Assembly (NCBI GenBank): GCA_003990765.1
Contig: RBNJ01000244.1
Location: 1-35,622 of the forward strand
Direction of reading: 5' to 3'
Source: Jimgerdemannia flammicorona
Taxonomy: Eukaryota
Length of the DNA: 35,622 bases
The number at the start of each line of letters is the position of its first letter. Position 1 is the first letter of the stretch. Made by a program: the position numbers and the translations under genes. Positions 3,801 to 35,622 of the stretch are shown here, in pieces. The notes below the pieces were generated by a model, which saw only the letters and a program-made list of their open reading frames with translations, ran no database searches and was not told where the DNA came from.

Positions 3801-3811
3801 ATATATCTTAG

Positions 3812-3815: not shown

Positions 3816-3851
<36 letters not shown>

Positions 3852-3934
3852 GTCACTTGGACTGCCCTTTATTACTACCATCTATAATAATAATGATACA
3901 GTATCACCCCATCCCTTCAACCAATATCCCTCAG

Positions 3935-7542: not shown

Positions 7543-7573
7543 ATTGAAAAATGTTTACAATTGAGGTCCCAAC

Positions 7574-9490
7574 CTAGTACTCCATACTCATCTCATCCCC
7601 AGCCAGATTCAAGCACCACTCTGCTTCTAAGTCACTCTCCACAACAGCCTGAGCATCCAATGCCTCCAAGATCTCCTGACATTCCACCCCATCCACCACC
7701 TCCATCTCTGACCAGTAGTCTCTGCAGACCACACGCCACTTCTCCAATTCCTTTCTTGAGTTCCACAGGAATGCCGCCCTGTCATTTGCAATCCCCCTAA
7801 GTTCCTCCTCCCACTGATCATTGACTTGATATTCAACTGATTCCAAGAGGACAGCTAGGATCTCATTCCTCACCTTCCTCAGCATCTCCTCTCCCCAAAG
7901 GATCTCCTCCCAATGCCTCTCTTCTATAACCCTAAAGTCCTCTCCTCCTAGCTCCTCAGCCGCCACCCCTTCCAGAGTCTTCCACAGCCACTTCTCCTCA
8001 TCCACTGCCTCTGCCACACCCTGGGCAATCTGCCCCCCCTCCACCTCTTGGTCCACCAGAGCACTCCTCCTCACAGACTCATCCCACTCCTCATCTGGGA
8101 CATCCAGCAACTCCTCCTCCCCTCTCTCTCCTCCCGGGACACTATACTGAGGGTGTACTCCTTTGCTCATTTCAGTATCAGCCTCCCCACCACCTTCTCT
8201 TGCCTCTCCCAATCCACACTGAGCCCCATCTCAGGCCACTCTGCATTCCCCAGCCCAGGCACTCTCCCTTAATCCCATATTTCCACCTCCTGTGCTGCCC
8301 CCTACTCTACTTCCACCCAACATCACCAGCAGCTCCTTCTGAATTTTCCTCCCCTGCATCTTCTCTCAGGCCACCCAATCCATCCTGACCCTCTTTCCAT
8401 CCACTTCTTCCACCACTATCCTGGCCACATATACCTTCCACACTGCTCTCCTCCTCTTGACTGCCCCTTCCAGATCCTCCAGCACCTCAAGCAAGTTCTT
8501 CTCCTCCTCCAGAGTCCCCTTCACCCTCATGACCCTGCACTCCACTGGGCCCCACCTCAGTGTTGCCAGCCAGTCTCTTGTCTTCCATGTGCTCTCCTTC
8601 CCAGCCAATTGTATCCTAATATCAACATCACCAGTCCAGAGCTCGGTACCCTCCCAGACCTTGAAACCAATATCCACAAAATTCCCATATTCCTTGACTG
8701 CTTCCACAATCAACTCCCTAGCCCTCACCTTTGACACTGTTGGAAGATCCAAAACTATCAACTGCACCACTTGAGGGTCCCAGTGTATATATCTGGCCAT
8801 AGGGACCACAATCCTGCCCACTATCACCTCCTTCTCCATGGCTACCAGTAATACTTTCTCTTTCTTAAACCCCACCTTGACCTCTTCTTTCCCCTTCAAA
8901 AACTTCACTAAAGCCGCACCTTTTGCCTCCTGCACCACTAGCCCCAGGATCATCCTTGCCGTCACTGCCAAGCCCCTGAAACACATTGTGACTGTGAATT
9001 CTGACCTTGATTTCTTGAGTAATGGTACTGACACCATGCCTGTCACCCCTTCTGCCAGGTCCCCAAGCCTCATGCTTACCCCCTGTCCTGAATTAGCAGC
9101 CACTGTCACATCTGGATTTTTTGCCAGATCCCAAGTCACAGTTCCATCAACAGTCACATCTCCCACCCCTACTCTCCCTCCTCCTCTACCATCAGACACT
9201 CCCTGAGGCACTCCTCCCTGTCCTCCAGCAGTAGCTGTTGATGCCTTCCCCAGACCCAGCCAGCCATCCAGACCTGAGGCCATCCTCCCCATCTTGACCT
9301 TGTCTGTGAAAGTCGACTGCTCCCCTCCTTGCTGCCTTAAGCCATCCCTCCCTCTGCTACCAGCACCCCGGCCAGCCATCAAGGCCCCCAGCATTCTCAA
9401 ACCATTGCTCCTCCTCCCCACCTGCTACCAGCCAAAGGCACCATCACCTCCCGGGCCAGCACACTCACCAGATTGATCATTGCCATCTAT
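7574..9490 (-). pseudogene. Copy C ORF1, single frame of about 638 codons
   Basis: Track ORFs 8366-9421 and 7574-8212 share one frame. It is interrupted only by TAG 9425-27, TGA 8366-68 and TGA 8231-33. The likely start is ATA (from ATG) at 9490. Contains TFTDKVK and an RRM-like hydrophobic core. Confidence 0.85.
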
Positions 9491-9588
9491 ATTGATAGTC
9501 CTCTGTCACTGAAAATGTTGAGAAGATATTGCCAAATTCTTGTGTCACCTGAATGGTACTTGTGAAAGATGTGGTATATCTTAGCCTC

Positions 9589-15998: not shown

Positions 15999-16081
15999 CA
16001 TACCTTGCTCTAGTACAATTCATGTTACACTAACTTCAAGCAATAGTTTCCAACACAACTCAGAGAAAAAATACTATTACA

Positions 16082-18091
16082 ATATCATTGAGCAAGAGTT
16101 CTGACAGATGTACTGAGTCGGGTGGACCTAGGGCTTTTGGTTGGCAGAATGTGGGGAGGGATTATAGCCTAGAGATGGGGGCCTTTGGAGGGTCAAAGGG
16201 TGGAGAGGGCTCTGGAGGAGGTCTGGTGCTGGGTGATAATGGGGGAAGGCCTGGCCCCCTAAGCTTTGCAGACAAGGTAAAGGGGAGTGGATGGCCAGCT
16301 GGAGCTAGGGCTGGTATTGCTGAGGGAAAGGACAAGGTGAGTCTTTGGTGGGGGGGATTTGCTCTGGCTAGGGGTGTGAATGTAGGGTCTGGAGGACTGT
16401 GGCTGGGAGTGGGACTGCTGATGGAAGTGTGATGGGGAATTAGGAAAAAAAAGGAGATGTGATAGCTGATGGCAGAGTGGAGCAGGGGTTCCCAATATGG
16501 AAGAGAGACCTGGCTGATGGTGTGATAGGGCTGGTGGTAGCACCATTACTCAGAAAATTGATCTCAGAGTTTATGGTGACTTTGTACTTCCGGGGCTTGG
16601 TAGTGATGGCAAGGATGGTCCTAAGAATTATCACAAAGCAGGTGGCTGGGGCCACCTGAAGGGTCTCAAAGAAGTTGAGATGGGCTTTGAGAAGAATGGT
16701 CCACTGGAGGAAATATTGAAGACTAGAGTAGTAGTAGGAGAGGTAGTTATCTCTATGGTGAAGTGTTTGAGGTGGAATTCCAGGGTGGTCCAGTTGCTAG
16801 TGAAAGGGGTGCCTATAGTGACAATGGTGGAGACTAGGAGGAGAGTGGAGGAGGTGATGGTAGAATATAGCAAGGTGGTTAATATTGGGTTCCAGATATA
16901 GGAGAGGACTTCATTCAAGACTAGAGATGTTGATATCAGAATTAGACAGGCTGGGACAGAGGCCATAGGGAAGACAAGTGACTGGCCATCAGTGATATTG
17001 TAGGGAGCCTTTATTTGCAAGATATCAAGGATAAAGAAGAGTGAGGAGGAGGAGGAGGACCTGCTGGAAGCTCTGGAGGAGATGAGTGGGACAGTGGAGT
17101 AGAGGGCAGAGGCTTGGAGGAGGTATGTCGAGTCAATACATTTGGAGATTGTAGAGAAGAAACATATCCACACTGATAAGAGGCAATGGGAGAGAGCTCA
17201 AGGGCACAAGAGGTAGAGAGAGCTATTGGTGAGTGTGAGAGAAGGAATGAAGAAAAATGTTGATGGGGCTGAGGGTCTGGAGGTGCCAAAGCCAGTGTCT
17301 GGGCTGATAAAGGAGGAGAGGATGTGGAGGAGGGCCAGGAGGAGGCTGGAAAGATACCAAGTAAGGATCTATATACAGATGGTATGTTTGAAGTTTGGGA
17401 GGAGGATGTGGGTAATACTCCCCCTCTTTTCAGGAGGGACCCAGCTGTGAAGGAGAGGGCATCAGAGGATGTATGGATGTGAGGTGTCCAGAGAGTGTAC
17501 TTTGGCATCCCTGTTGTAGTGAAAGGAGGACAGGTAGTAGCAGATAGCGAGGATGAGCTGGTGGATGTCTCAGAGGAGGAGTGGGATGAGTCTGCAAGTG
17601 CCAGGGCAGATACCACAATACTGGATACTAGAAGGCCAGTTATACCAGAAGGGAAGGAGGTGGGGAACCTACTGTGGATATACTGAATGATGAATAACTT
17701 TGTGGCTAAGAAGTTGGGAGAAGTGGACCTGAGTGTGTTGTCTGAGGAGCATTGGGCACAGATCCTGCATGGGGATGGGGTAGTGGCATCTCTGAAGGGA
17801 GAGATGCTTACAATTCTTCTGAAGGAGGAGGGGTATGAGGTTGACAAGAAGAGGGAGGCTGAGCTGGAGGTGGTGGCTGGGGAGCAGGCTGCCCACTATT
17901 GGGCAGAGAGGCATGGTCTGAAACTCTGGCAGGAGGCCTGCCTGGAATATCATAAGGAATTCGAGGAGAAGGAGGATGGAGTGATGGCTGAACTTTTGGT
18001 GAGATTGGAGGTAAAGGAGGCTGAAGAGGAGGAATTGGCTGCAGAACATATCTTGGACTTGATGCAGGAGGAGAGAAATGTGGATTTATAG
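16082..18091 (+). pseudogene. Copy D ORF1 (disrupted)
   Basis: AFGWQNVGR, SFADKVK, LLRKLISEF, LVDVSEEEWDES, LAAEHILDLMQEE. Confidence 0.88.
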
Positions 18092-18128
18092 AGTATATGC
18101 TAGTTCTTACTTCTAAATATTATTCCCA

Positions 18129-21100
18129 ATAAATAGTATAACTAACATTTTTTCTCTGAACATGAATGGGTTAAGGGACTCTGGGCAGTGAAAGAACATT
18201 TTTACTTGGCTTAAGGGACTGGAGGCAGATCTCTTTCTGTTGTAAGATATATGTTATAAGGATGAGGAGGATTGAGTGGAGTAGACTAAAGAATGGGGAG
18301 GGACTATGGCTTGGATTGGCAAAGTGGTGATATTGGTGCAGGTTGGTAGAAGGGATTTAGGTGGCATCAGAAACTGGGAAGACTGTTTGGTATGGGGGGA
18401 ATGGCATTCCCCTGGGTGGGAGCCTATGAAAGTTGGCTCTTGCTACTATCTGGCAGCTAGGGGTGAGCAGATTGCTTAGATTAAGGGTCTGTTAGAGGAA
18501 GGCATACTCTTGGAGGAAGAGATAGATGTTCTAGGAGGGGACTTCAATATGGCATGGAATTCTCAATTACATCAAACAGATGGAGGGAGGAATGTGGGCA
18601 GGAGGAGTGGTGGCCTGGATACATGAGAGGAAGTAGAGACCCTTAGCTCCTTAGGGAATATGGGCAGAGCACAGTGAGGAGAAAAGAGGATCTATACACA
18701 CTGGGTGAATAGACTAGATATAAGAATTGACTAGATCCTGATGTCCAAATACTGGGGCCTGGATGTCTGGAGGTTGCTGGAGGTGGAGTAGTGCCCATAG
18801 TCTGATTACTGGGACTTATTAGGGCAGGGGCAGTTTGGGGGGAGTGGAGATAGACCTGGACATTGGTGCCTTAACTCCTCTCTGCTAGTAGAGAAGGCTT
18901 TTTGGGACCCTTGGGTAGAGGATATACAGGTGAAGATTGCTGGCTGTATATATGAGGGGTTGCCAGTGGGTATCCGATAGTTAAAGTTGAAAGAGACAGC
19001 CTGGGTTTACTGGAGAGGAGCTGGCAGAGGGGTAGAGAAGCAGAGAAGGAGAAGGGTGTGGTATGCTTCCAACCAGTTGGTTAGATTATAGATAGAATGG
19101 GGAGGTTTGCTAAATTCTGGTAAGGTCAATGATTGGAGGTTAATGCATGTGAAATTGAAGGTGATGGAGTTGCAACAGGTGTTGAGAGAGAAGGAGGAGA
19201 TGTATAAGAAGGAAATGGCAGCCAGGTTGAGGTAGCAAGACTTCAGGAGGAGGAGTGACCCACTAGGTACTTATCACAGCTCCTCCAGGTGGCATCAATG
19301 GAATTAGGTCCTGGATGTAGATGGAGAAATGGCATACAACAGATCTTGGGAGTGCTGAAGGAGAGATGGAGGGATCTGTAGAGTGAGGAGGAAGGGGGTG
19401 TGGATGAGGGGGTGATTGGAGACATGCTAGAGGATTGGGAACCATTACAAGTAGAGGGCCTGGATGACTTGATTCTACTAGGAGATCCAGAGAGTCCTTG
19501 CTGAAATTAAGATGGCACCAGGAGAGGATGGGCTACCTTGAGACTTTTGGAAGAAGATAACAAAGATTCCTGGAGTTTTAGAAGAGATGGTAGCCCTCTG
19601 TGACCATATTCTTCTGAATAGTGAGTGGGTTGGCAAGCAGGACTTGGAGTTGGTGACCTTGTTGTATAAAGATAAGGGAAGGAGGGAGGACTAGAAGAAT
19701 TGGAGACCAATCATACTTCTGGATATAGATGGGAAGATGGTGATCAAGATAATTATTATGAGGTTATAGAAGATAGCCCAATGGGTGCTGGGTGAGGAGC
19801 AGCAGGGCTTTGTTAGTGGCAGGCTTATCTGAGATAGGACAGCCTGGGTCCATGGTATAATTGAAGGAGTGCAGGCTTGTGGACTAGATGGGAGACTGGT
19901 TTTTCTGAACAAGGAGATGGCCTATGACTGTGTTTAATGGGTGTAACTGGGCAAGATACTGGATAGAATTAGTATTCCACTATGTTTTTGGGCTTCTATG
20001 TTGGGTCTGTTGGAGGGCAGTAGAGCAGCATTGATGTGTAATGGGCATCAGGGTCTGGCATTTCCCTTGAGAAGAGGAGTTCCTCAGGAAGATCCATTAT
20101 CTCCTATTTTTTATACTCTATCATTAGAACTTTTGATGGATAGGATAAGACAGAAGATGGCAGGGCTATCTGTATATGGTATAGTGTGGAAGATGAGGGT
20201 CTTTGCAGATGATATGGTAGTTGGCCTTGGCTAAGTGGCAGATGTTGAGGTACTTTAAGAGATGGTGGAATAGTATGAGATGCATTCTGAGGTATAACTC
20301 AACTGGCATAAGTGTGAGACAAAAGTGCTTAAGAACAGGCTGGTGGGTGGGGATATTATTGGAACAATTGTTCCTACAGAAGAGGCAGTGAGATACTTAG
20401 GTATCTTCCTTTCTATATATAGTTCTATCCTACCACAGGTGTGGTGGAAAAGGAGGGTGGCTATTTGGAGAGAGGTCTATAGAGATTGGGGAGGTCACTA
20501 TATCTCTCTAGCAGGCTAGATATTAATTCTGAATGTTTACTGGTTCCCAAAGCTGTGGTATATTATCTATTATTTGGATTTTCCAGCTTGGGTGATATAC
20601 AGACTGATGAAGCTAGCTAGAGACTGAATTTGGAGTAGAAGGTGGTCCCAGGACAGTTGGAACACTCTGATGACACCAGTGGTGTGGGGAGGGCTGGGTC
20701 TAGTAGACATCCCTAAGAGGCTGTACTATCTGTATGCTTGGTGGTTGAAAAGGGCAATTAATTTACAGGGAAGCAGTTGGATGCCACTGATGCAAAAGGT
20801 GTGGGAGATGAGATTCTCTCTACAAGAGTCCTTAGAGTATTTGCTGTCTCTGGTGGGTCTAGATGGGAGCCAAGACTATAGTATACATAAGAGCTACTGG
20901 TAGTGGGTGGTGGATGGGGCACACTGAATAGGCCTGTACTGGTGAAGCATTGAGGGGGAAATATTGTGGAGACCAGCTATATGTCAGTTGGACAGGCTAC
21001 TTCTGGGGGATATTCTACTTATTGAATTTGATATTGGGGATGTAGTTGAGTGTGAGCAGGGCCTTAGTCAGGATCTTTGGCCAAGTGTTTGGCAGGCAGT

Positions 21101-21755
21101 AGGGATTGGTGAGGAGTAGGACTGGGTAAGAGTCTGGTCATAGAGTGCTGATGTGTGGAAGTGGCATCCTCCCAAGTTCTGGGTGGTCTGGTAGTGGATG
21201 CTGTGGAGAAATGTCATATTGAATTTTCATGCTGGACATCTGGTAGATGGTGGCTGATACTATTGTGAGGAGTGCTATAATGTTGGACAGGTTGCGGGTT
21301 TTGTGCAGATGCCTGAACATTGTCTGAGAGAGTGTAAGGTTCTGGGGAATTTTTGGATAGAAGTAGGAAACTGGCTGGGGGTAGAAAAGAGCCTGGATGG
21401 AGAGAGGGGTCACAGGGAGGATTTAAAAGCTAGGTTAGTGAGTGGTGTAGATAATGTATAGCTCACTGTAGGGTGGGTTTTGGTAGTTTGGATAGGGCTG
21501 GCTAGATATTGACTCTTTGTTTTTGAAGAAGGGTGGCAGATAGGTATATAAGAGAAGCTATCAAGATGGGAGGGGTTGATGGGAGATTTGCTTACTGGGT
21601 GGTGGGTTGGTTGGGGTCCCCAGGGTGGGCAATGCCACCATCTGGTAGAGAGAATCTGTAAACAGAGTTATTGATAGGTAGAGATGGTGAATGACAAAGT
21701 AGTCTTTTAGCAAGTAGGGGTGGGAGAAGGGAGGGTCTCTAGGGGGATCAGTTAG
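18129..21755 (+). pseudogene. Copy D ORF2 (APE-RT-Cys/His finger), disrupted; 3' limit approximate
   Basis: FSLNMNG, GGDFN, GVPQEDPLSPIF, VFADD, GGLGLVD, CEECYNVGQVAGFVQMPEHCLREC. Confidence 0.9.
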
Positions 21756-21821
21756 GGGTGAGCACAGTGTATTATGTTATGAATAGATGGGTATATTAAT
21801 AAAGGAAAGAGTCTGAGTAAC

Positions 21822-21886
<65 letters not shown>

Positions 21887-23105: not shown

Positions 23106-23120
23106 GAGGTACTGTGGCTA
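23106..23120. repeat. 15-bp TSD of copy F (partner 29053-29067)
   Basis: gaggtactgtggcta vs gaggtgctgtggcta, one A/G mismatch. Confidence 0.92.
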
Positions 23121-23205
23121 CAAGCATCTTTCTCAGCTAACATTTACATTATACATACTTTATAACATACTCTCAAGTCATTTATTAGAGAAAGGTGATA
23201 AGAAA

Positions 23206-25230
23206 ATGGCAATCAACAAGTATTCTGGGGTGCATACTGGGTAGGGCAGCCCAAGTGTACTCAACTGACAGCAGGTGGGGAGAGGTCCTGGTCTGGGGGG
23301 TGACATGAGAGAGCTGTTGGCAGGAGGATGAGGAGGAGGTGGAGGCAGCAGTGGAGGACAGGGGTCTGGGAGGGCAAGCTTTGCAGAGATGGTGAAGGGG
23401 AGGCAGCAGATGATAGGGCTGGAGGGTAGGCTGAGAAAAGGCAAGGAGACAGAGATGATGACAGTTTGTGGGAGAGTAGCACTTGGGGGTGAGGGCAGTG
23501 GAACTGGGGGAGTAGTAGCTGGGGGGGGTGTGATGGCTGATGGTGACAGGACTGCCAATCTGGAATAAAATCTATATGTGACAGCTGATAGCACAGCTGA
23601 GCAACTGAGGCTTGGAAGGCAGGGAGATTTGGCAGATGGTGTAATAGGCTTGGCAGTAGCATCATTACTCAAGAAATTGATCTCGGCATTTGCAGTGACA
23701 TTGTGCTTCTGGGGCCAGATAGTGATGGTGAAAATAGTACTAGGGCTTATTGCTAAGCAGGTGGCTGGAGCAGCATCTGTGAAGTTCCTGAAGGGATTGA
23801 AGGAAGTAGAGGTGGGTTTTGAGGAGGCTGAACCCCTGGAGGAAGTGCTGAAGATTGGATTGATTATTGGGAAGATGTGTGTCCCGATAGTGCACTGTCT
23901 GAAATGGGACCCCAGGGTGGTCCAACTGCTAGTGAAAGGAGTGCCCATGGTGATGGCAGTAGAGATGAGAAGAAGAGTTGAGGAGGTTATGGCAGAGTAT
24001 AGCAAGGTAGTAGATATTAGGTTCAGAATCTGGGAAGGGATCTCACTCAGGACTGGGGATGTGGATGTGCAGATTCAGCTGGCAGGGAAATAAGCTACAG
24101 AGAAGACAAGGGACTGGCCTTCAGTGATGATCTGGGGGGTGACCTTATGCAAGGTAACAAGGTTGAAAGAGAGTAAGGAGGAGGAGGAAGACTTGCTGGA
24201 GGCACTGGAAGAGATGAGTGGAGCAGTGGAGTAGCAGGCAAAGGCTTGGAGGTCCTTTGTGGAGTCGACACACTTGGAGGTAGTGGATGGGAAGAGGATC
24301 AGAGTGGACAAGGGGCAATAGGAAAAAGCTCAGAGCTATAAATGCCAGAAGGAGTTACTGGCTAAGATGGAGAGTCAACTACTGAAGGAGGCTGGTAGAA
24401 TGGTGGAACCAGGGGGTGCCAAGGTGAGTGTCTGGGCTGGCAAGAAGGGTGGGAGTGCAGGGGAAGGAACTGAGGAGGACAGGAAAGCAGCTAGTGGTGA
24501 CCCATATGCTGATGGTATGTTCAAGGTCTGGGAAGAGGACTGAGAGAAATTGCCTACCTCTACTCCTCTCATCAGACAAGGGCTGGCTTACTATAGCAGG
24601 GCAGGAGAGGATGTACCAATGAAGGGGGCTCAGCAAGTGCAATTTGGCATGCCTGAGGTAGCAAATGGGGGACAGGTAGTGGTGGTTGAAGAGGAGAAAT
24701 TAGTGGATATCCCAGAGGTGTGGAATGAGGCTGTGAGTACCAGAGCTGATATCACAATGTTAGATGGTGGAAGACTGGTGATGTCAGGAGGGAAGGAGGT
24801 GGGAAATCTACTTTGGATGTGCAGGATGATGAATAACCTGGTAGCTGAAGAGCTCAGGAAGGTGGACTTGAGGGTGATGAGTGATGAGCATTGGGCATGG
24901 GTATTATAGAGAGATAGTGTGGAGTTGGCATTGAAGGCAGAGATCCTTGTAGTTTATCTAGAGGAGGAAGGGTATGAGGTGGATAAGGAGTGAGAGGCCA
25001 AACTAGCAGGGGTTGCCAGTGAGAGGGTCAAGTACTGTTGGGCCAAGCAACATAAGTTGCAGCTCTGGCAGGAGGTATGCCTGGAATACTGAGAGGAGTT
25101 TGAGGAGAAGGCAGATGGAGAGATGAATGAGCTGTTGGTTGAATTGAAGGCTCAGAGGGCTGAAGGGGAGGCAGTGACTGCAGAATATAATCTGGACATA
25201 GTATAGGAAGAGATGAACTTGGAGCAGTAG
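23206..25230 (+). pseudogene. Copy F ORF1 (disrupted)
   Basis: ATG at 23206 (MAINKYS), SFAEMVK, LLKKLISAFAVTLCF, WDPRVVQLLVKGVP, acidic C-terminus. Confidence 0.88.
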
Positions 25231-25263
25231 GGATGGACTAGATAAAAAACACTATACTTCAAT

Positions 25264-28200
25264 ATGAATAGTACAATCAACATTTTTTCACTGAACATAA
25301 ATGGGTTATGGAGTACTTCTCAATGAAGGAACATTTTTACCTGGCTGAAGAGATTGGAGGCCAATCTCTTTCTCTTGCAGGATGTCCAGTATAATGATGA
25401 TTTGGATAAACTGGAATGGACAAAGAAATGGGGAGGTGAGGCAGTTTGGATGAGCAAGGTTGGGATTCTGATATGGAAAGGCAGAGGGGAGATAAGGGAT
25501 ATGAAGAGCTGGGGAAATTGACTGGTCTGGGGTGAGTGGATATGTACTGGATGGGAGCCAATTATAGTGAGATCTTGTTACTGCCCTGCTATATGGGGTG
25601 AGCATATGGATGGGGTGAAGGGTCTTCAAGAGAGTGGGACACTCACAGAGGCTGGAGTAGATGTACTGGGTGGAGACTTTAATATGGTTTGAGAGGTACT
25701 GTTAGATAGAACAGATGGAGGACAAGGAGTTGAGGGTCAGAGTGGAGGGCTGGTGGCATGGGAGGAAGTAGAAAGGCTGAGTACTCTGGTGGATGTAGGT
25801 AGGAAGTGCTGGAGAGTTAGGAGGATATACATACATTTGACAGGAGGCTTGGGGATGAGAATTGATTGGATTCTGATAGCCAGCTATTGGGGTTTGGATG
25901 TTTGAAGATCACTAGAGGTGGAATGGTGTCCTTGGTCAGATCATTGGGGGATTCTAGGACAGGGTCAGTTTCAGGGGAGTGTGGATGGGCCTGGACATTG
26001 GCACCTCAATTCCTCCTTGTTAGATGATAGGATCTCATGGGATGGGTGGACTGCAGACATTTAGCTATAGGTAGAGTATTGGAGACAGGAAGGTACCTTA
26101 GTGGGTATTTGGTAGATGAGGATGAAGGAGATGACCAAGACATACTGGAGTGAGGCTGGTAAGGAGACTGGGAAACAGAGGAGGTGAAAGGTGAGATGTG
26201 CTTCCAGTAGACTGTCTAGGCTCTTAGGCAATTGGGTGAGACTGGTGACATTGGAGGGGGAGGAGAATTGGAGGTCTATAAGGGTGAAAAAGGAGGTTGG
26301 TGAACTACAACAGGTGCTGTGGGAGGAGGAAGAAGCGAGGGTGAAGGGCTTGGCAGCTAGGCTATGTTGGTAGGGTTTGGAAGAAGGGGAGAGGCCCTCT
26401 AAGTTTATCACAAGGGCCCTTTGGGCAAGGAGAGTGCAACAAAGGTAGGAGGGGGTACTCGACTCTGACAGTATTCTGGTCCATGGTATTTAAGACATTC
26501 TGGGATTTTTAAAGGAGCACTGGAGTGGATTGTAGAGTGAGGAGGAGGGTGGGGTAGATGCTGATATGATTGGCCATGGATTAGAAGATTAGCAACCCCT
26601 ACAATTAGATGGGATGGGTGACTTGGTTTTGCTAATCCAAGAGGAGGAGATCTGCCAGGTTCTCACTGTGACAATGCCAGATATAGTATCTGGCAAAGAT
26701 GGTTTGCCCTGGGATTTCTAGAAGAAGATGGTCAGGATCCCAGGAGTACTGGGGGAGATGACAGTATTGTGTGATCTTATTTTACAAACAGAGAGATGGG
26801 TGGGGGAACAGGATCTGGGGTTAGTGATATTGCTCTATAAGAACAAAGGAAGGTAAGAGAAATGGAAGAAATGGAGGCCAATTATGCTCTTGGATATGGA
26901 CAGAAAGTTGGTTACTAAGGTAGTAGGTGCAAGACTACAAGTGGTAGTATAGCAAATCTTGGGCATTGAGCAGAGGGGCTTTGTAGGGGAACAGCTCATT
27001 AGGGATGGTATGGCCTGGATACCAGGAGTTATTGAAGGGGCACAAGCTTGTAGATTGGATGGGTGCCTGGTCTTCTTGGACCAGGAGAAGGCTTATAACT
27101 GGGTGAGGCAGGTCTGGCTGGCAAAGGTTTTAGATAGGGCTGGGGTTCTGCACCAGTTCTGGTCAGTGATGGTCAGTCCACTAGAAGGGAGTAGGGTGGT
27201 GCTAATGTGTAATGGACATTGAGGGGTGGATTTTTCCCTGGGTAGGGGGGTGCCCCAAGGGGACCCATTGACCCCCATTTTGTATGCCCTTTTCCTAGAA
27301 CTACTACTGAATAGAATCAGGCGGAAAATAGTGGGGCTCTCTATCTTTAGCATTGGGTGGAAGGTAGGGGCCTTTGTGGATGATATGGTGGTCAGACTGG
27401 GATCAATTGCTGATGTTGAGGAGCTTAAGAAGACAGTGGAGGGGTATGAGGAGAACTCTGAGGTGAGACTTAATTGGCATAAGTGTGAAACAATGGTGTT
27501 AGGCAATAGTCTGATGAGTGGGGAGGTTATTGGAACAATTGTCTCTGCTGGTGAGGCAGTGTGGTACTTGGGTATCTATCTATCAGTGTATGGATCAGTA
27601 CTACCTAGGCTTTGGTGTGAGCAGTGGGTTGGCATCTGGGGGGAGGCCCTGTGGAGTTGGGGGGGCTGTCAATTGTCCCTGACATAGCATGTTATAATTT
27701 TGAACATTTACTAGTAACTGAAGTTGTGATATCTGGCATATCATCTGGACTTCCCATCCTGGGTGATGAAGTGGCTGATGAAGCTTGCCAAGGGATGGAT
27801 CTGGGCTGGAAGGAGGAGTCAGATAAGCTGGGAGGTCTTGTCCTTACCAGTGGCAAGTGGTGGTTGACTTTTCAAAGAGGCTGCACTGCTTGAGGGTTTG
27901 GTGATGAAGAGAGCTGTGGAATTGAGCGGGGGTGATTGAGTTCCCATATTGCAGAAAGTTTGGGAGAGGCAGTCCTTGCCAAGAAGCTCAACTGGCAATC
28001 TCCTTTCTCTGGTTAGACTTCAGAACACTAATCATTTGCGATATAAAGGCTTCTGGTGAGAGATAGCAGAGGGGGTGCACCACATTGGGATCCATTGGCA
28101 GGGAATGAAGGAGAGGAGGATTGGGACCCAGTGATGTGGAGATAGGACTGGGTGCTACTGGGCAGCATCCCTTTACTTGAGTTTGACATTAGTAATGGGA

Positions 28201-28903
28201 TAGCCTGCCAGAGGGAACTGGACCAGGATCTGTGGCCCAGTGGTTGGCAAGGTATAGGAATTGGCAAGGAGTGGGACTGGCATAGCATTTGGACATGGAG
28301 TGCCAAGGTGAGAAGATGGATGCTGCCGAAGTCCTGGGTGACTTGGTGGGACATGCTGAGGAGGAATGTCATGCCCAATTACCACTTGGGTCATCTTGTC
28401 AAGGGGGGTTATTTTCACTGTAAGGAGTGCTATAATGTAGGACAGGAAGGGGGTTATGTACAGATGCCTGAACATTGGCTAGGAGAGTGTGAGGTACTTA
28501 GTAACTTTTGGCAGACTGTTGGGGATCATTTAGGAGTAAGGTGTAGGGGAACTAGTATGTGGGGGTGGTGGGAGGTTTTGAGAGACAGACTGGTGGGGGG
28601 GGGTGAGAAAGGAATGGCTCATGCTTGGCTGGGCTCTGGCCATTTGGGTTGGGTTGGCTGACCACTGGTTTTTGTTTTTGAGGATAGGAGGAGACTGGGC
28701 TTAGAGGTCTGGCTACAGCAGTGGCATGGCCTTATGGAGGATACCTTGACAGGCTGGTGACTTGGTTGGGGGATACAGGGGGGCTGGAGGCATTATCTGG
28801 TAGAGAAAATTTGTAGGCAGAGTGGGGGAAGAGTAGGAGTAGTGGGAGAGAAGGTGGTCTTTACTTGGGTTGGGGTAGGGAGAGACCCCCCTATGGGGAT
28901 TAG
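25264..28903 (+). pseudogene. Copy F ORF2 (APE-RT-Cys/His finger), disrupted; 3' limit approximate
   Basis: MNSTINIFSLNINGL, LLQDV, GGDFN, WSDH, FLDQEKAY, GVPQGDPL, AFVDD, CKECYNVGQEGGYVQMPEHWLGEC. Confidence 0.9.
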
Positions 28904-28966
28904 ATAGTGGGAGAAAGACTGTATATTTAACAATAGAATGATAATAAATGGCAGAGTCCAAGTAAC

Positions 28967-29056
<90 letters not shown>

Positions 29057-29067
29057 TGCTGTGGCTA

Positions 29068-30758
29068 GGGATGGGACTACTGATGACAGTATGATGGGAA
29101 ATCAGAAAAAAAAAAGAGATGTGATAGCTGTTGATGAAGTGGGGCAGGGGTTCCTGATGCAGAAGGGGGATCTGGCTGATAGTATAACAGGACTGGCAGT
29201 TACACCATTACTCAGGAAATTGATCTCGGAGTTTGTAGTGACACTGTGCTTTCAAGACTTAGTGGTGACAGTAAGGGTGGTCTTGGGGTTTATCTTGAAG
29301 CAGGTGGCTGGGACTACATCAGTGAAGTTCCTAAAGGGTCTAGAGAGGGTTGAGGTGGGCTTTGAGGAGGCAGGCCTCCTGGAAGAGACTCTGAAGACTG
29401 GAGTGGTAGTTGGGAAGGTAGTGGTCCCCATAGTATGCTTCGTGAGGTGAGACCCCAGAGTGGTGCAGCTGCTGGTAAAGGGGGTGCCTATGGTGATAAA
29501 GAAGGAGGCTAGGAGGAGGGTGAAGGAGGTGATGGTAGAGTATGGTAATGTGGTGGATGTCAGTTTCCAGGTATGGGAGGGGACCTCCATTAGGACAGAT
29601 AATATGGATGTGAGGATTAGACTGACTGGAAGAGAGGCCATAGGAAAGATGAGCAACTGGCCCTTGGTGTTAATGTGGGGGGCTTTAGTCTGTAAGGTGT
29701 CAAGGATGAGAGGGAGTGAAGTGGAGGAAGAGGACTTGTTAGAGGCTCTGGAGGAGTACCATTGAGAGGAGGGTGAAGGCTTGGAAATTGTATGAGGAGT
29801 CGACACATCTGGAGATTGTTGATGAGAAGTATATTGGCACTGACAAGAGACAGTGGGAGAGGGCTCAAGGGCACAGGATGGAGAGGGAGTTATTGGTGAG
29901 CATGGAAGTTGGGGGTAAGATGACAACTATGGGCCCTGTGAAGTCTGGGGGAGTGGTGGCAAGTAACTGGGCTAGCCAGAGAGGAGGTGATAGGGAGAAG
30001 GGCCTGGAAGGAGCTGAGAAGGTGCCACCCAAGGACCCATTTGCTGATGGAACTTTCAAGGTCTGGGACACAGTTGTGGATAATACTCCCTCTCTGATCA
30101 GGAGGGGTCCAGCAGCAAGAGGTTGGGCAGCAGTGGACAAGCTGATACAGGGTGCTCAAAAGGTACACTTTGGGGTTCCTGATATAGCAAAGGGTGGACG
30201 GATGGTAGCAGTTGGTGAGAACAAGCTGGTGGATGTCCCTGAGGAGGGATAGGATGAGACTGGCAGTGTGGGGCTGATACCACAATGCTGGATGCAGGAA
30301 GGCCTGGGATACCAGGAGGAAAGAAGGTAGAGAACCTGCTGTGGATGAGCAAGGTGATAGATAACCTCATAGCTAAGGAGTTGGGGGAAGTGGACCTGTG
30401 AGTGATGAGTGAGGAGCACTAGGCAGGGATTCTGCAGAGAGAGGGGGTGGTGGGGGCATGGAAGGCAGAGATTCATGTGATTTTCCTGAAGGAGGAGGGC
30501 TATGAGATTAATAAGGAGAGGGAGGCAGAGCTTGCAGTTGTTGCTGGTGAGTGGGCTGCCTACTGTTGGGCTGAGCAGCATGGTTTGCAGCTCTGGCAGG
30601 AGGCTTGTCTGAAATATTGTGAGGACTTCAAGAAAAAGGAGAATGGGGTAATGGCTGAACTGCAGGAAGGGTTGGATGCACAGACTGCTGAGGAGAAGGT
30701 GTTGGCTGCTGAACATGACTTGGACTTGATACAGGAGGAGTTGAATGTGGATTTGTAG
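29068..30758 (+). pseudogene. Copy E ORF1, main part (5' part at about 22365-22662 and 23095-23120)
   Basis: Colinear with ORF1 of D: LLRKLISEFVVTLCF ... VLAAEHDLDLIQEELNVDL. Confidence 0.88.
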
Positions 30759-33316
30759 AGGCTGCAATTGATAATTAATATTATTCCTAATAAACAGTAC
30801 AACTAACATTTTCTCTCTGAATGTGAATAGATTGCAGAGTACTGGGCAGCATAAGAACATTTTTACTTTGCTTAAGACTCTGGAGGCTGATCTCTTCTTA
30901 TTGCAGGATGTATAGTGTGAGGGTGAGGAGGATCAAGTAGAGTGGACTAGAGAATGGGGAGGGAATACTGCTTGGATTGGCAAAGTGGCGATTCTGGTGA
31001 GGAAGGGTAGAGGAGATTTGGGTGGAATCAGAAGCTGGGGTGACCACTTAGTATGGGGAGTATGGCATAGACCTGGGTGGGAATCTGTTAAGATTGGCTC
31101 CTACAACTGCCCTGTGGTTAGAGGTGAGCAGATTGAGTGGATTAAGGACCTTTTGGAGGAGGGCATCCTCTTGGAGGAGGGCATCAATATTCTGGGAGGT
31201 GACTTTAATATGGTGTGGGATCCACAGCTGAATAGAACTGATGGCAGGAGGAGTGTGGGTGGGAGGAGTGGTGGTCTGTATAAGTGGGAGGAGGCAGAGA
31301 ACCTTAGCTCCTTGAGGGATATGGAGAGGATATGGTTGGGTGACAGGAGGGTCTATACATACTGGGTGAACGGGCTGGGTATGAGAATTGACTGGATTCT
31401 GACAGCTGAATGTTGGGGAGTTGATGTTTGGAGGACTCTAGAGGTGGAGTGGTGCCCATGGTATGATCACTGGGAGCTGTTGGAGCAGGAACAGTTTGGG
31501 GGGAGTGAAGATGGCCCTGGACATTGGTATCTTAACTCCTCTCTGCTGGATGAGAAGGGGTTGTGGGACCCATGGGTGGAGGAAATCTAGGAGAAGATCA
31601 CCTACTAGATATATGAGGGTTTATCTGTGGGGGACTGCTGGATGCAGTTGAAGGAGGCTGCAAGGGTATATTGGGGAGAAGCTGGTAGAGAGGCTGGGAG
31701 GCAGAGAAGAAAGTGAGTGAGGTGTACTTCTAATAGGTTGATTAGATTGTAGATGAAATATATTGATTTGCTTTCTTCTGAAGGAGTGGAGGATTGGAGA
31801 TTGATGAGGGTGAAATTAGAGGTAGTGGAGTTGCAACAGATATTGAGAGAAGAGGAGGAGATCTGTTTGAAAGGAATGGCTGCCAGATTGCAGTGGCAGG
31901 GGCTTAAAGAGGGTAAGAGGCCTACAAGTTACTTATCTAGGCTTCTTGAAGTAAGGAGGGTGCAAAATTAATGGGATGGGGCCTTTGATGTTGAGGGGGA
32001 CATGGTGTGTTACATGCAACAGATCTTGGGGGTATTGAAGGAGTAATGGAGAGGGCTGTAAAGTGAGAAGAAAGGGGGTGCAGATGGGGAGGCAATTGAT
32101 GATACACTGCAGAAGTGGATTCCACCACAAGTAGAGGGGCTTGGTGACTTGATTGAATTAGTCCAAGAGGGGGAGATCAAGAGTGTCCTTGTAGTGACCA
32201 AGCTTGGGACAGTGCTAGGAGAAGATGGGTTACCTTGGGACTTTTGAAAGAAGATTGCAAAGGTCCCTGGAGTATTGGGTGAGATGGCTGCTCTCTGTAG
32301 CCATGTTCTTCTGAATGGTGAGTGGGTTGGAGAGCAGGCCTTGGGGCTGGTGGCCTTATTGTATAAAGACAAGAGGAGGAGGGAGGACTGGAAGAACTGG
32401 AGACCAATTATATTCCTAGATATGGACAGGAAGATGGTGACTAAGGTGATTGTCGCAAGGCTATAAAAAGTTGCCCAACAGGTGCTGGGTGAGGAGCAGT
32501 GGGGCTTTGTTAGAGGTAGGCTAATAAGGGATGGGACTGCATGGGTGCATGGCATCATTGAAGGAGCCTGGGCCTGTGGACTGGATGGTAGATTGGTCTT
32601 TTTGGACCAGGAAAAGGCCTATAACTGTGTGCAGCAGGTTTGGCTCGGCAAGATACTAGATAGAATTGATGTTCCCCTATAATTTCGGACTTCTATATTG
32701 AATCTGTTGGAGGGCAGTCAGGTAGTGCTGATGTGTAATAGTTACTGAGATCTGGCATTTCCATTAGAAAGGGGAGTTCCTCAGAGAGACCCTCTGTCCC
32801 CTATTCTTTATACTCTTTCATTAGAACCTTTGATGGAAAGGATTTGCTTGAAGGTAGCAGAGCTCTCTATATATAGTATAGTGTGGAAGGTGGAAGCCTT
32901 TGCTGATGACATAGTAGTTGGACTTGGTTCTGTAGCAGATGTTGAGGTACTTAAGGAGACAGTGGAATAGTATGAGGCACACTCTGGGGTAAAGCTCAAC
33001 TGGTATAAGTGTGAGACAATAGTGCTAGGGAATGGACTAGTAGGTGGGGATGTCATTGGAACAGTTGTCCCTACTAGTGAGGTGGTGCAGTATCTGGGCA
33101 TCTTCCTTTCTGTATATGGATCTGTCTTACCACAAGTGTGGTGGGCAAGCAGAGTGACCATTTGGAGAGAAGTCCTTCGAGGATTGAGGGGCCACCATAT
33201 CTCTCTAGTAGGGTGGGTGTCAATTCTGAATGTTTACTGGTTCCCCAAGCTATGGTATATGACATATCACCTAGACTTCCCAGCTTGGGTGGTGAAGAGG
33301 CTGATGAAGATGGCTA

Positions 33317-33331
33317 GAGATTGGATTTGGG
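33317..33331. repeat. 15-bp TSD of the 1.2-kb insert (partner 34536-34550)
   Basis: gagattggatttggg vs gagattgaatttgga, two G/A mismatches. Confidence 0.88.
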
Positions 33332-34535
33332 CAGTCCCTTTCTCTGCTACCTTACTGGTTACAAGATTTGGTAGGCAACCTTCTGAGTCCCCTTTTCCCT
33401 ATTATTACCCCTCTACCTTAGGTTGGTTTGCTGTGCCTGTATGGGCATGGTGGGAGGAGGGCAATGGTGATGAGTTGCCCCTTTATCAGTGTCTAATCAG
33501 TGTCTTCTCCACTTTTTTGCAGTTTCTGGTGTCTTCAGCTGCATCTGGAGTGTATCTGTTTTGGTGCGGTGCCTTCTTCCTTTTGCTGTCATCAACAAGG
33601 TACAGCCTTGGTGTGTCATGGATTCCATAGAGAGTTGGCCAACCTTGGGCATCAAGTGCTCAGTATAGGTTACCTGCAGGTCCTTGGTGCCTGTGGTGGG
33701 GCCCTCTGGCTTTGGCAAGCTTCTCAGTGAGCATAGTTCTGATGTAGGTGACTATTTTTCAGATGTTGTTGGGATGGAAGGGGAGATGGCTGTCACAGAT
33801 AGGAGGATGGGTGATAACAGTGAACCAGTGGGGTGCTAGGCTAGGAGTGGTCATTGGGGCTAGGGCAGACAATATTTTGGTGGGGCCTTTTGATTGACTG
33901 GTGGGGGTGGGGTAGTGCAGGGGCTGGCATCCTGGCTGTACCCAACTGGAACTGAGAGCTGATATGGTAATACAATTGAGGCCTACAGGCTTGGGGAGTG
34001 GGGCCTTCATCATTTGGCAGTACCCAACTAGAACTGGGAGCTAACATAGCAATATGATCAAGGCCCACAGGCTTGGAGAGTGGGAGTGGGGTCTTTTCAG
34101 GCCCTAGCCCATGTGTAAGTCCTTTGAGGAAGGTGCTACATGTAAGTCCTTTACTCACCCACTTTGAATCTACTCTGCTCTCTGTTGGTTGGTTGGGAGG
34201 TTTTTTCTTTACCTTGGGCTTTCTTTTGTGGTTCAGGGGGCTATTCTTTATTCAGTTCTGGTGCTGCTAGATCTGACGCATAGGTGTGCTCTTGCATGTA
34301 AATGATGATCTAGTCCTAGTGAGCAGACAAGTCTAGTATATTTCATGTGGGTCAACATAGCCAGTGTTTGACAGACATAGCTGGAGCAGTGGGACTGCTG
34401 GACAATTTAGTAGCCTAGGTTAATGGTGGGATATTGTTCAGTGGATGGTGGGGGAGGGTTTTGGCCAATATAGTCTAGGTTCTCTTCTAATAAAAATCTG
34501 CAGGACTATGAGTCCATTAAATAAAAAAAAAAAAA
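33332..34535 (+). mobile_element. 1204-bp polyadenylated non-autonomous retroposon (SINE-like or LINE parasite), body unrelated to LINE ORFs
   Basis: 15-bp TSD, 5' CAGTCCCTTTCTC, AATAAA 34489-94, poly(A) 34523-34535. E ORF2 homology stops at 33331 and resumes at 34551. Confidence 0.85.
33933..34096. repeat. Two-copy 82-bp tandem repeat inside the insert
   Basis: gtacccaact at 33938 and 34020; the units differ almost only by transitions. Confidence 0.85.
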
Positions 34536-35622
34536 GAGATTGAATTTGGATAGAGAGGAGGTCCCAGATCAGTTGGGATACTCTTGCAACACTGGTAATT
34601 AGAGAAGGTCTGGGCCTTGTGGATTTCCCTAAGAGATTGCACTATCTGCAAGCCTGGTGGTTGAAGAGAGCTTTTGAACTGCAGGGAGGGAGTTGGGTAC
34701 TACTATTGTAGAAGATGTGGGAGATGAGATTCTCCCCTCAAGGGTTCTTGGGAGATTTGCTCTCTTTGATTGGGCTGAATAGCAGTCATTAGATGCAGTT
34801 TAAGGGCTTTTGGTGGGGGGTAGTGGATGGAGCACAGAATTGGCCTGCACTAGAGAGGTAATGAGGGGGAGGTAATGTGGGGTCCCAATATGTGGTGATG
34901 GGACAGACTTCTTCTGGGGGGTGCTCTACTGACTGAGTTTGATATTAGAGATGGAGTGGAGTGTCAGCAGGGTCTTGGTCAGAATTTTTGGCCAAGTGGC
35001 TGGCAGGTGGCAAGGATTGGCAAGGAGTGGGACTGGGCAGAGGTCTGATTGTGGAGTGCTGAGATATAGAGGTGGCTTCCTCCCAAGTTCTGGGTGGTAT
35101 GGTGGAGAATACTGAGGAGGAATGTTATATTGAATTTCCATACAGAACATCTAGTGGAAGGCAGACAATTAGATTGTGAAGAGTGTTATAATATAGGGCA
35201 AGTTGGGGGATTTGTGCAGATGCCAGAACATTGGCTGGGAGAGTGTGAGGTTTTGGTGGACTTTTGGATTGAAGTAGGGAATAGGCTAGGTATAAAGAGG
35301 AGGCCAGATTGTATGAGAGGCTACTGGAACTCAACTAGTAGGTAGTGTGGACAATAGTTGGCTCACTGTGGAGTGGGTGTTAGCAGTAAAGGTAGGACTG
35401 ACTGATTATTAGCTCTTTGTTTTTAAAGAGGGGTAATAGATGAGTTTATAGAAGAAGTTATTATGGTGGGAGGGGTTGTTGGGGGATCTGATGACTGAGT
35501 GATGGGTGGGTTGGGGCTACCAGGGTGGGTAACATTGTGGTCTGGTGGAGAAGATCTGTGAACAAAGTAGTGGGTGGATGGAGATGGTGTTAGACAGAGT
35601 GGCCTTTCATTGAGTAGAGGTG

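What the first reader, a model, noticed from the sequence alone, without database searches (positions are those of the whole stretch)
33317..34550. Candidate new non-autonomous partner element mobilised by the LINE
Seen: a 1204-bp sequence with no LINE ORF homology splits ORF2 of copy E. It ends AATAAA...poly(A) and has the same TSD length (15 bp) and target context (TA^GAGA) as the LINEs. Its first about 55 nt (cagtccctttctctgctaccttactggttacaagatttggtaggcaaccttct) align loosely with the 5' end of copy C (cacatctttcacaagtaccattcaggtgacacaagaatttggcaatatcttct), and its 3' end contains GAGTCCA like copy F. It is CpG-depleted like the multicopy LINEs. I see no tRNA-like A/B boxes. Inference: a Pol II-type parasite that kept the LINE promoter and 3' signals around a foreign body, rather than a classical SINE or a one-off processed pseudogene.
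Basis: partly seen in the sequence, partly recalled or inferred. Interest (0 to 1): 0.85.

Follow-up and report, generated by a model that had tools for sequence, protein, structure and literature searches.

The report
Poly(A) retroposon inserted in a LINE
A 1.2-kb non-coding, poly(A)-tailed sequence was pasted into an old LINE element by the LINE's own copying machinery, and because related pieces turn up many times in public soil data it is probably one member of a repeated hitch-hiker family, a known kind of element though possibly an undescribed family.

Summary
The insertion is real. Bases 33332-34535 (1204 bp) interrupt ORF2 of a decayed APE/RT LINE. Removing them plus one repeat copy (1219 bp) restores colinearity and reading frame with other copies. 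The piece has AATAAA 28 nt before an A13 tail and a 14-15 bp target duplication. That duplication starts GAGR, as in all three LINE copies whose two ends lie in the window.

It has no tRNA, Rfam or A/B-box features. Nothing in it resembles a LINE ORF or any protein family.

It is not a one-off gene retrocopy. In contigs of four public runs from four studies, many distinct contigs 80-99% alike cover it, including pieces of 150-431 nt.

Its first ~45 nt resemble the conserved 5' terminus of the five LINE 5' ends in the window. The match is in register and is the best non-self hit of a profile, but it is weak: 4.4 bits, reached by 2 of 3000 shuffles.

The claimed 3' likeness (GAGTCCA) is no better than chance. 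CpG depletion is window-wide and says nothing.

Best reading (about 0.5): a Pol II-type non-autonomous retroposon with a LINE-like 5' head, as in NARTc/L1Tc. Shared termini among copies, Dfam/Repbase status and the host genome could not be checked.

The parts
33317..33330 (+). 5' copy of the target-site duplication (GAGATTGGATTTGG). Base 33331 (G) is either a 15th, mismatched TSD base or an extra base at the 5' junction.
33332..34522 (+). Body of the inserted retroposon, 1191 nt. It is non-coding and G+T-rich (A 0.20, C 0.19, G 0.29, T 0.32), with CpG o/e 0.03.
33337..33379 (+). LINE-like 5' head. It aligns in register (profile positions 5-46) with the conserved 5' terminus of LINE copies B-F.
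33933..34084 (+). 82-bp tandem repeat, 1.9 copies, 81% matches.
   Evidence: One X2 contig 'goes back 61' with 18 letters between at this place, which I read as one more repeat unit.
34489..34494 (+). AATAAA poly(A) signal (within TAATAAA), 28 nt before the tail.
34523..34535 (+). Poly(A) tail, A13.
34536..34549 (+). 3' copy of the target-site duplication (GAGATTGAATTTGG).
29053..33331 (+). Host LINE copy E, the part upstream of the insertion. Its 5' end lies at 22283, and it is also interrupted by a palindromic element and by LINE copy F.
34550..35622 (+). Host LINE copy E, continuing after the insertion and running off the window.
3816..9573 (-). LINE copy C. It is full length (5758 bp with A33), has TSD GAGGCTAAGATATA, and holds the RT and APE remnants used as reference.
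15999..21883 (+). LINE copy D, full length with A59 and TSD GAGATTTTTTC[T/C]ATA.
23121..29052 (+). LINE copy F, full length with A82 and TSD GAGGT[A/G]CTGTGGCTA, inserted into copy E.

Best explanation
The 1204-bp piece is a full-length copy of a repeated, non-coding, non-autonomous retroposon that uses the enzymes of the LINE family around it.

Proposed cycle:
1. Pol II starts at the element's first bases. This start is directed by a roughly 45-nt 5' head related to the conserved 5' terminus of the LINEs (inferred).
2. The transcript is cleaved and polyadenylated after TAATAAA. The signal and tail are shown; their use is inferred.
3. The LINE endonuclease nicks a GAGR site and the reverse transcriptase primes on the poly(A) tail, leaving a 14-15 bp duplication. 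The insertion hallmarks are shown.

The body is unrelated to the LINE. The element is therefore neither a deletion derivative with both LINE ends nor a Pol III SINE. It resembles NARTc beside L1Tc.
For: LINE-type insertion:
- Precise interruption of ORF2 with a 1219-bp offset, and frame restoration when it is removed.
- An A13 tail and AATAAA 28 nt upstream.
- A 14-15 bp TSD starting GAGR, as in 3 of 3 LINE copies with both ends in the window. The 15 nt before B's 5' end also start GAGA. The background frequency of GAGR is 3.5%.

Repeated family (contigs of X1-X4, four studies, laid at 80% likeness):
- At position 33495, 37 contigs in X1, 12 in X2, 5 in X3 and 5 in X4 carry the other letter.
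- At 33808 there are 34 such contigs in X1. At 34043 there are 19.
- Long pieces lie inside the insertion: 33367-33566 and 33690-33896 (X2), 33411-33708 (X3), 33607-33787 and 33931-34085 (X1), 34192-34433 (X2), and 34036-34466 (X4, 431 nt with 49 differences).
- X1 holds 10% of the insertion's sampled 31-mers.

5' head:
- The first 40 alignment columns are the best conserved block of the LINE 5' regions, at 64% mean pairwise identity against 32-60% further on, leaving out the short last block of 19 columns.
- A profile of the five LINE 5' ends finds the insertion's bases 6-48 at profile positions 5-46. This is the best non-self hit in 35.6 kb on both strands, and 2 of 3000 dinucleotide shuffles reach its score.
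- It is the only hit of a 380-nt LINE 5' profile within the insertion.

No Pol III features and no coding signal.
Against: - The 5' likeness is weak: 4.4 bits, window-wide E 1.9. Pairwise it is marginal against C, E and F and absent against D. Part of it is a pyrimidine run (CCTTTCTCT) that could be a common initiator type rather than shared descent.
- No copy with its ends and flanks could be fetched, so shared termini and TSDs of the family are unshown.
- Of the 24 loose ends shown (716 more were not shown), none marks a pile-up of contig ends at 33332 or 34535.
- The laid contigs come from metagenomes and one coded organism and may mix species.
- Contig depth is uneven across the element. 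It is high at 33299-33853 and 34409-34630 and about tenfold lower between. The tool warns that this is not copy number.
- The 3' end shows no LINE likeness, so nothing beyond poly(A) explains recognition by the LINE.
- The tail is short (13 A) beside the LINE tails of 33, 59 and 82.
Confidence: 0.5

Rival explanations
1. An occasional LINE-mediated retrocopy (processed-pseudogene type) of a Pol II transcript that came from some other repeated sequence or multigene family. On this reading, the many related contigs reflect the source repeat and not amplification by retroposition.
For: - Poly(A), AATAAA and a TSD are what any trans-mobilised mRNA would show.
- Uneven contig depth along the piece, with no shown pile-up of ends at the two termini.
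- Retrocopies of transposon transcripts are described as 'retro-DNAs' in primates (bioRxiv 10.1101/2020.03.19.999144; search listing and start of abstract only).
Against: - The 5' terminus matches the LINE 5' head in register. A random transcript would not be expected to.
- No protein, Pfam or Rfam likeness to any gene or transposon was found.
- Contigs are colinear with the piece over up to 431 nt in independent runs.
Confidence: 0.22
2. A one-off or founder chimera made by template switching. Reverse transcription of a foreign polyadenylated RNA jumped onto a LINE RNA about 45 nt from its 5' end and ran to that end.
For: - The LINE-like part is short, sits exactly at the 5' end, and abuts an unrelated body.
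- Such bipartite L1 chimeras are known. This is recalled knowledge and was not checked in a paper here.
Against: - The head is only loosely like any of the five LINE 5' ends in the window, although those ends also differ much from each other.
- Loose-end letters in X2 show that other copies continue 5' at least to about base 47 of the element (33378-33407). The body is therefore repeated together with sequence next to the head.
Confidence: 0.1
3. A decayed fragment or deletion derivative of a different, very divergent LINE lineage, with 5' UTR or ORF1 remnants joined to a 3' UTR, rather than an element with a foreign body.
For: - It shares the LINE-type 5' head and the poly(A) signal spacing.
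- LINE subfamilies in the window already differ by 20-40%.
Against: - No nucleotide or six-frame protein likeness to any of the LINE copies beyond the head.
- ORF1 starts about 85 nt from the 5' end in the LINEs and aligns among all five copies. The insertion shows nothing comparable.
- No likeness to the well conserved LINE 3' end.
Confidence: 0.1

Closest known systems
NARTc beside L1Tc (Trypanosoma cruzi). Also RIME/ingi and the Pr77 hallmark of trypanosomatid retroposons.
   Same: A non-coding, poly(A)-type non-autonomous retroposon whose 5' terminus is shared with the autonomous LINE while the rest is dissimilar. In L1Tc and NARTc the first 77 bp are identical and act as an internal Pol II promoter with transcription from +1. 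The remainder is only 54% similar (PMC1874656, passages read).
   Different: - Here the head likeness is loose rather than 100%, and covers about 45 nt.
- The body is 1.2 kb rather than about 0.26 kb. The NARTc length is recalled and was not seen in the passages.
- No HDV-like ribozyme family was found by Rfam anywhere in the window, and no conserved fold of the head.
- Promoter activity is untested.
- The partner RT is nearest to human L1 ORF2p among solved structures (E 2.3e-8), not to an ingi-type element.
SVA (hominid composite retroposon mobilised by L1)
   Same: Pol II-type and non-coding, about 1-2 kb, with a poly(A) signal and tail, L1-type TSDs, an internal tandem-repeat region, and mobilisation in trans by LINE proteins (PMC3287187, search listing and abstract).
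   Different: No Alu-like or retroviral parts. The tandem repeat is only 1.9 units of 82 bp. SVA has no LINE-derived 5' head (recalled).
Classical SINEs (tRNA, 7SL or 5S heads, often with a LINE-derived 3' tail)
   Same: Non-autonomous and dependent on a partner LINE, with target-site duplications.
   Different: No small-RNA head, no A/B boxes in place, no LINE-like 3' tail, and about 1.2 kb long.
Processed pseudogenes / retrocopies
   Same: Poly(A) tail, TSD and LINE-mediated insertion.
   Different: Many distinct related contigs in four runs, no coding remnant and a LINE-like 5' terminus.

Membership tests
LINE-mediated (target-primed) retroposition product | 3' poly(A) tail preceded by a poly(A) signal | tested here: met
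   A13 at 34523-34535, with AATAAA at 34489-34494.
LINE-mediated (target-primed) retroposition product | Target-site duplication of the same length and nick-site preference as the partner LINE | tested here: met
   14-15 bp starting GAGA after TA. LINE copies C, D and F have 14-15 bp starting GAGG, GAGA and GAGG. GAGR starts 3.5% of positions.
LINE-mediated (target-primed) retroposition product | Precise interruption of a known sequence, with the empty site seen elsewhere | tested here: met
   Offset jump of 1219 against copy C. The frame is restored against copy D. Contigs of other LINE copies skip a net 1219 in 4 of 4 runs (tables 5 and 5c).
Classical Pol III SINE | Head derived from tRNA, 7SL or 5S RNA, with A and B boxes near the 5' end | tested here: not met
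   ARAGORN found 0 genes. Rfam found 0 hits at E<=1 in 33000-35000. No B box in the insertion. The only A-box-like word lies at 34382.
Classical Pol III SINE | 3' tail shared with the partner LINE (stringent type) | tested here: not met
   No hit to profiles of the last 40 or 80 nt of copies C, D and F. The shared-word test is not significant beyond TAATAAA.
NARTc/RIME-type non-autonomous retroposon with a LINE 5' head | 5' terminus shared with the autonomous partner | tested here: inconclusive
   In register and the best non-self profile hit, reached by 2 of 3000 shuffles, but only 4.4 bits and E 1.9 window-wide. Pairwise p is about 0.03 against C and F, 0.07 against E, and not significant against D.
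NARTc/RIME-type non-autonomous retroposon with a LINE 5' head | Repeated family without coding capacity | tested here: met
   Many distinct contigs 80-99% alike in four runs of four studies. No Pfam hit passing its curated cut-off in 14 frames searched at E<=1; the one match listed, VapB, scores 14.2 bits against a cut-off of 27. No homologues of the 98-aa or 136-aa frames.
NARTc/RIME-type non-autonomous retroposon with a LINE 5' head | Copies share both termini and each has its own TSD | not testable with these tools
   No host genome is held. Scans of metagenome, viral and genome contig collections fetched no copy.
NARTc/RIME-type non-autonomous retroposon with a LINE 5' head | The head acts as an internal Pol II promoter with transcription from +1 | not testable with these tools
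   Needs 5'-end mapping and reporter assays.
Processed pseudogene of a cellular gene | Single or few copies, with recognisable coding parent | tested here: not met
   Dozens of distinct contigs per position in X1. No protein or family likeness. An intron-containing parent could not be searched for.

The most novel reading that the evidence does not exclude
Outside the trypanosomatids, a LINE family and an unrelated 1.2-kb non-coding element share a short portable 5' head that sets the Pol II start. On this reading, the hitch-hiker has become repeated to roughly the same order as its LINE partner with no LINE 3' signal beyond poly(A). It would be an independent invention of the NARTc/L1Tc arrangement with an L1-like partner.
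Probability: 0.35. Interest if true: 0.55.

Novelty: new member of a known kind. Interest (0 to 1): 0.4.

Why it matters
If the reading holds, the element shows which minimal parts a parasite of a poly(A)-dependent LINE needs: a roughly 45-nt start signal and a poly(A) signal. The conserved 5' head would also become a candidate internal promoter for this LINE family that can be tested directly.

It also matters for annotation. Such elements are missed by SINE finders that look for Pol III heads, and they can be mistaken for processed pseudogenes.

If the reading fails, the finding is an ordinary LINE-mediated retrocopy.

Tried and rejected
- **Own genome.** Dfam and Repbase are not among the tools.
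- **Fetching copies.** All attempts came back empty.
  - The search for related loci with the 98-aa read-through frame in metagenome contigs matched 322 pattern stretches, none confirmed.
  - A 29-letter degenerate DNA pattern from 33481-33509 gave 0 matches in metagenome contigs and 0 in viral contigs.
  - The LINE RT piece gave no confirmed match in viral contigs. In genome contigs it gave only two bacterial RT loci, L001 and L002, which are irrelevant.
- **Expression.** No RNA holder was listed by the look-up of sequencing runs. This says nothing about expression.
- **Contig depth.** Depth is lower at 33854-34408 than at the two ends. No joint that would show a short form was among the 15 joints listed (3 more were not shown), so no short form is claimed.
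- **Protein and coding tests of the body.**
  - Pfam on 14 frames of 42-136 aa at E<=1 gave one sub-threshold chance match, VapB at 14.2 bits against a cut-off of 27.
  - The word-indexed search of the 98-aa frame gave 0 hits.
  - The exhaustive HMMER search of the 136-aa minus-strand frame gave 0 hits among 1.84 billion representatives. Only these two frames went to the large databases.
- **3' end likeness to the LINE.** Rejected.
- **Conserved RNA fold of the 5' head.** None, with 0 predicted pairs.
- **HDV-like or other ribozyme at the LINE 5' ends.** No Rfam hit at E<=0.1 apart from a sub-threshold miRNA-family match elsewhere.
- **LINE clade.** Pfam shows only RVT_1 and Exo_endo_phos remnants.
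  - The nearest solved RT is human L1 ORF2p.
  - Relatives in the protein collection are unnamed metagenome fragments.
  - Atlas look-alikes of the endonuclease piece are eukaryotic with mixed taxa.
  - The host was not identified.
- **Earlier notes of this scan.** Nothing was found.
Full report
**What the window is.** The 35.6-kb window is a nest of decayed LINE copies.
- Pfam finds reverse-transcriptase and APE-endonuclease remnants on the G-rich strand.
- The best RT piece is nearest to human L1 ORF2p among solved structures (E 2.3e-8) and further from R2 proteins.
- Five 5' ends lie in the window: B at 10816(-), C at 9573(-), D at 15999(+), E at 22283(+) and F at 23121(+).
- Three 3' ends with long tails lie in it: C with A33, D with A59 and F with A82.
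- Copy F sits inside copy E and copy C sits inside copy B, all in the same orientation as their host.
- CpG is almost absent everywhere, with observed/expected 0.01-0.16 per 2-kb block, AT-rich spacer included.
- No whole genome is held for the window, and the host could not be named.

**The observation.** The insertion is real and its limits are exact.
- It runs from 33332 (CAGTCCC...) to the end of an A13 tail at 34535, which is 1204 bp.
- Against copy C the alignment offset jumps by 1219 = 1204 + 15.
- With the insertion and one repeat copy taken out, the ORF2 frame of copy E reads on (...KMARDWIW|VERRSQISW...) and runs parallel to copy D (...KLARD*IW|SRRWSQDSW...).
- In contigs of four public runs, other LINE copies skip a net 1219 bases at exactly this place (tables 5 and 5c).
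- The flanking repeat is GAGATTG[G/A]ATTTGG. That is 14 bp with one mismatch, or 15 bp if the preceding A is counted.
- The TSDs of C, D and F are 14-15 bp and begin GAGG, GAGA and GAGG after TA or TG. The 15 nt before B's 5' end also begin GAGA.
- GAGR starts 3.5% of positions in copy E and TRGAGR 0.7%. The shared nick-site context is therefore a modest but real argument that this LINE family's endonuclease made the insertion.
- AATAAA lies 28 nt before the tail. A second AATAAA merely abuts the tail.

**What the insert is not.**
- ARAGORN finds no tRNA, and Rfam finds nothing at E<=1 in 33000-35000.
- There is no B box. The only A-box-like word lies about 1050 nt from the 5' end, in a window where such G-rich words are common.
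- blastn at word size 7, six-frame tblastn and nhmmer with five LINE queries find no likeness of the body to any LINE copy.
- Fourteen open frames of 42-136 aa give no Pfam family passing its cut-off.
- The 98-aa frame that continues from ORF2 has no relative in the word-indexed collection.
- The 136-aa minus-strand frame has none among 1.84 billion representatives. Only those two frames went to the large databases.
- The long frames are expected in a G+T-rich, A-poor strand.
- The body contains an 82-bp unit repeated 1.9 times.

- The index of public runs listed four holders with small shares of the insert's 31-mers: 0.10, 0.05, 0.05 and 0.04. Three are soil metagenomes and one is a coded organism, from four studies in all.
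- I laid their contigs on 32300-35600 at 80% likeness. X1 gave 2092 contigs, X2 503, X3 104 and X4 300, ranging from over 99% to under 90% alike.
- Inside the insertion many distinct contigs overlap the same base. At 33495, 37 (X1), 12 (X2), 5 (X3) and 5 (X4) contigs carry the other letter. At 33808 there are 34 in X1, and at 34043 there are 19.
- These counts are of the same order as in the LINE flanks, for example 24 contigs at 33064 and 18 at 35064 in X1.
- Long pieces lie wholly within the insertion:
  - 33367-33566 and 33690-33896 (X2)
  - 33411-33708 (X3)
  - 33607-33787 and 33931-34085 (X1)
  - 34192-34433 (X2)
  - 34036-34466 (X4, 431 nt with 49 differences)
- Differences are mostly transitions, as in the LINE flanks.
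- One X2 contig joins back by 61 bases with 18 letters between at the 82-bp repeat, which I read as one more unit.
- I conclude that the sequence belongs to a repeated family and is not a one-off retrocopy of a single-copy gene.

**Limits of that evidence.**
- These are short contigs from mixed samples, and no piece spans the element.
- Of the 24 loose ends shown (716 more were not shown), none marks a pile-up of contig ends at 33332 or 34535. Shared termini and separate TSDs of family members therefore remain unshown.
- Summed contig depth is high at 33299-33853 and 34409-34630 and about tenfold lower between. The tool warns that this is not copy number, and I draw no structure from it.
- Attempts to fetch whole copies from the contig collections all failed.

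**The 5' end.** The LINE 5' regions align along their length.
- An ATGGCAA start lies about 85 nt in, and the first 40 columns are the best conserved block, at 64% mean pairwise identity against 32-60% further on apart from the short last block of 19 columns.
- The insertion's start lines up with them: CCTTTCTCT, then TAC, GGTTACA and AGATTTGG.
- Pairwise, the likeness is marginal.
  - Against C, 131 of 5000 shuffles reach it.
  - Against F, 162 of 5000.
  - Against E, 343 of 5000.
  - Against D there is nothing.
  - The summed score is reached by 51 of 5000 shuffles.
- A window-wide control with that free-end-gap pairwise score showed windows away from the LINE 5' ends (for example at 5841 and 14921, sum 37) scoring above the insertion's 25, so I do not rely on it.
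- The profile test is cleaner. An HMM of the five LINE 5' ends (70 nt) was scanned over the whole window on both strands. After its five training sequences it finds the insertion's bases 33337-33379 at profile positions 5-46, that is, in register at the terminus. The score is 4.4 bits and the window-wide E is 1.9. Of 3000 dinucleotide shuffles of the insertion's first 70 nt, 2 reach it.
- A 380-nt LINE 5' profile has this as its only hit within the insertion.
It stays weak, and part of it is a pyrimidine run that could be a shared initiator type rather than descent.
- No conserved RNA fold accompanies it, and Rfam sees no HDV-like ribozyme.

**The 3' end.** The three LINE 3' ends are well conserved (TAATAAA..GGCAGAGTCCAAGT.ACTAT), with profile self-hits of 25-60 bits.
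- The insertion's 3' end gives no hit at all.
- Local alignment is not significant: 96 of 1000, 833 of 1000 and 302 of 1000 shuffles reach it.
- Shared words beyond the poly(A) signal are at chance level.
- GAGTCCA is therefore a coincidence by these tests. Only a generic Pol II poly(A) signal at the usual distance is shared.

**Reading.**
- *Shown:* a LINE-type insertion event with this LINE family's target preference; a repeated, non-coding sequence family; no Pol III features.
- *Supported but weak:* a LINE-like 5' head.
- *Inferred:* Pol II transcription from base 1 under control of that head; polyadenylation; capture of the poly(A) RNA in trans by the LINE proteins; target-primed reverse transcription at a GAGR nick.
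- The extra G between the TSD and CAGTCCC could be a cap-derived base. Copy C has an extra C at the same place, so I give this no weight.
- The preference for GAGR also explains the same-orientation nesting. Copy E has 149 GAGR words on its sense strand and 18 on the other.

**Comparison with known elements.**
- The closest described arrangement is NARTc beside L1Tc in Trypanosoma cruzi. The first 77 bp are identical in both and act as an internal Pol II promoter with initiation at +1, while the rest is 54% similar. The same hallmark heads RIME/ingi and the degenerate elements (PMC1874656, passages read; abstracts of PMC3383444 and PMC8190864 seen).
- SVA is the other Pol II-type L1 passenger with an internal tandem-repeat region (PMC3287187, listing and abstract).
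- The present element fails the tests for a classical SINE and for a single-copy processed pseudogene.
- It meets the tests for a LINE-mediated, repeated, non-coding element. The test for a shared 5' head is inconclusive.
- I therefore file it as a probable new member of a known kind. It works like NARTc, but no descent from that family is implied.
- Whether the family is already catalogued could not be checked, because Dfam, Repbase and the host genome were unavailable.

**Verdict.**
- It is right on multicopy status, Pol II type and LINE dependence.
- It is plausible but weak on the promoter-like head.
- It is wrong on the 3' signal and on CpG depletion as evidence.
- Interest is moderate.

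Noticed in passing
window 22663-23075, with a relative at 12544-12779: An AT-rich palindromic, MITE-like element interrupts the 5' part of LINE copy E. Its arms, 22735-22865 and 22875-23005, are 79% complementary. It is 88% complementary to 12544-12769. Unlike its surroundings it still holds CpGs. Rfam gives a full-length but sub-threshold match to the MIR7504 precursor family (42 bits against a gathering score of 83, E 1.5e-4). In the paper listing that family name appears mostly in cotton studies. This is a weak lead on the host, nothing more.
   Followed up: partly
whole window. Strand blocks 1-15000 (-) and 16000-35622 (+).: LINE copies are nested in one another in the same orientation: C in B, and F and the retroposon in E. 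The sense strand is G-rich and C-poor (G 0.35-0.38, C 0.13), giving GC-skew blocks of about +/-0.45. GAGR, the start of every TSD, occurs 149 times on the sense strand of copy E and 18 times on the other. That asymmetry would by itself produce same-orientation self-targeting.
   Followed up: partly
whole window: CpG observed/expected is 0.01-0.16 in every 2-kb block, including the 24%-GC spacer at 14001-16000, while GpC is normal (0.74-1.09). This is far below the CpG depletion I recall for vertebrate or plant genomes, a comparison made from memory, and it remains unexplained.
   Followed up: no
LINE 5' ends at 10816(-), 9573(-), 15999(+), 22283(+) and 23121(+): The LINEs have a short 5' leader of about 85 nt before an ATGGCAA start. 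The start is mutated to ATT in D and E. The first 40 nt are the best conserved part of the 5' region, which makes them a candidate internal promoter or initiator.
   Followed up: partly
window 33411-33738 (contig of run X3): A 335-nt contig matches 33411-33708 and then continues with letters that differ from the window by transitions at 8 of the 9 differing positions in 30. At those 8 the contig holds C or G where the window holds T or A, which restores several CpGs. The ninth difference runs the other way. It looks like a much less decayed relative of the element, possibly a younger or unmethylated copy or one from a related species.
   Followed up: no
window 29106-29115: An A10 run followed directly by GAGATG lies inside copy E, near the junction with copy F. 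It could be the stump of a severely 5'-truncated poly(A) insertion at another GAGR site, or simply an A run.
   Followed up: no
window 21825-21883, 28971-29052 and 3816-3848: The LINE poly(A) tails are unusually long for old, decayed copies (59, 82 and 33 A) and are pure. The retroposon's tail is only 13 A.
   Followed up: no
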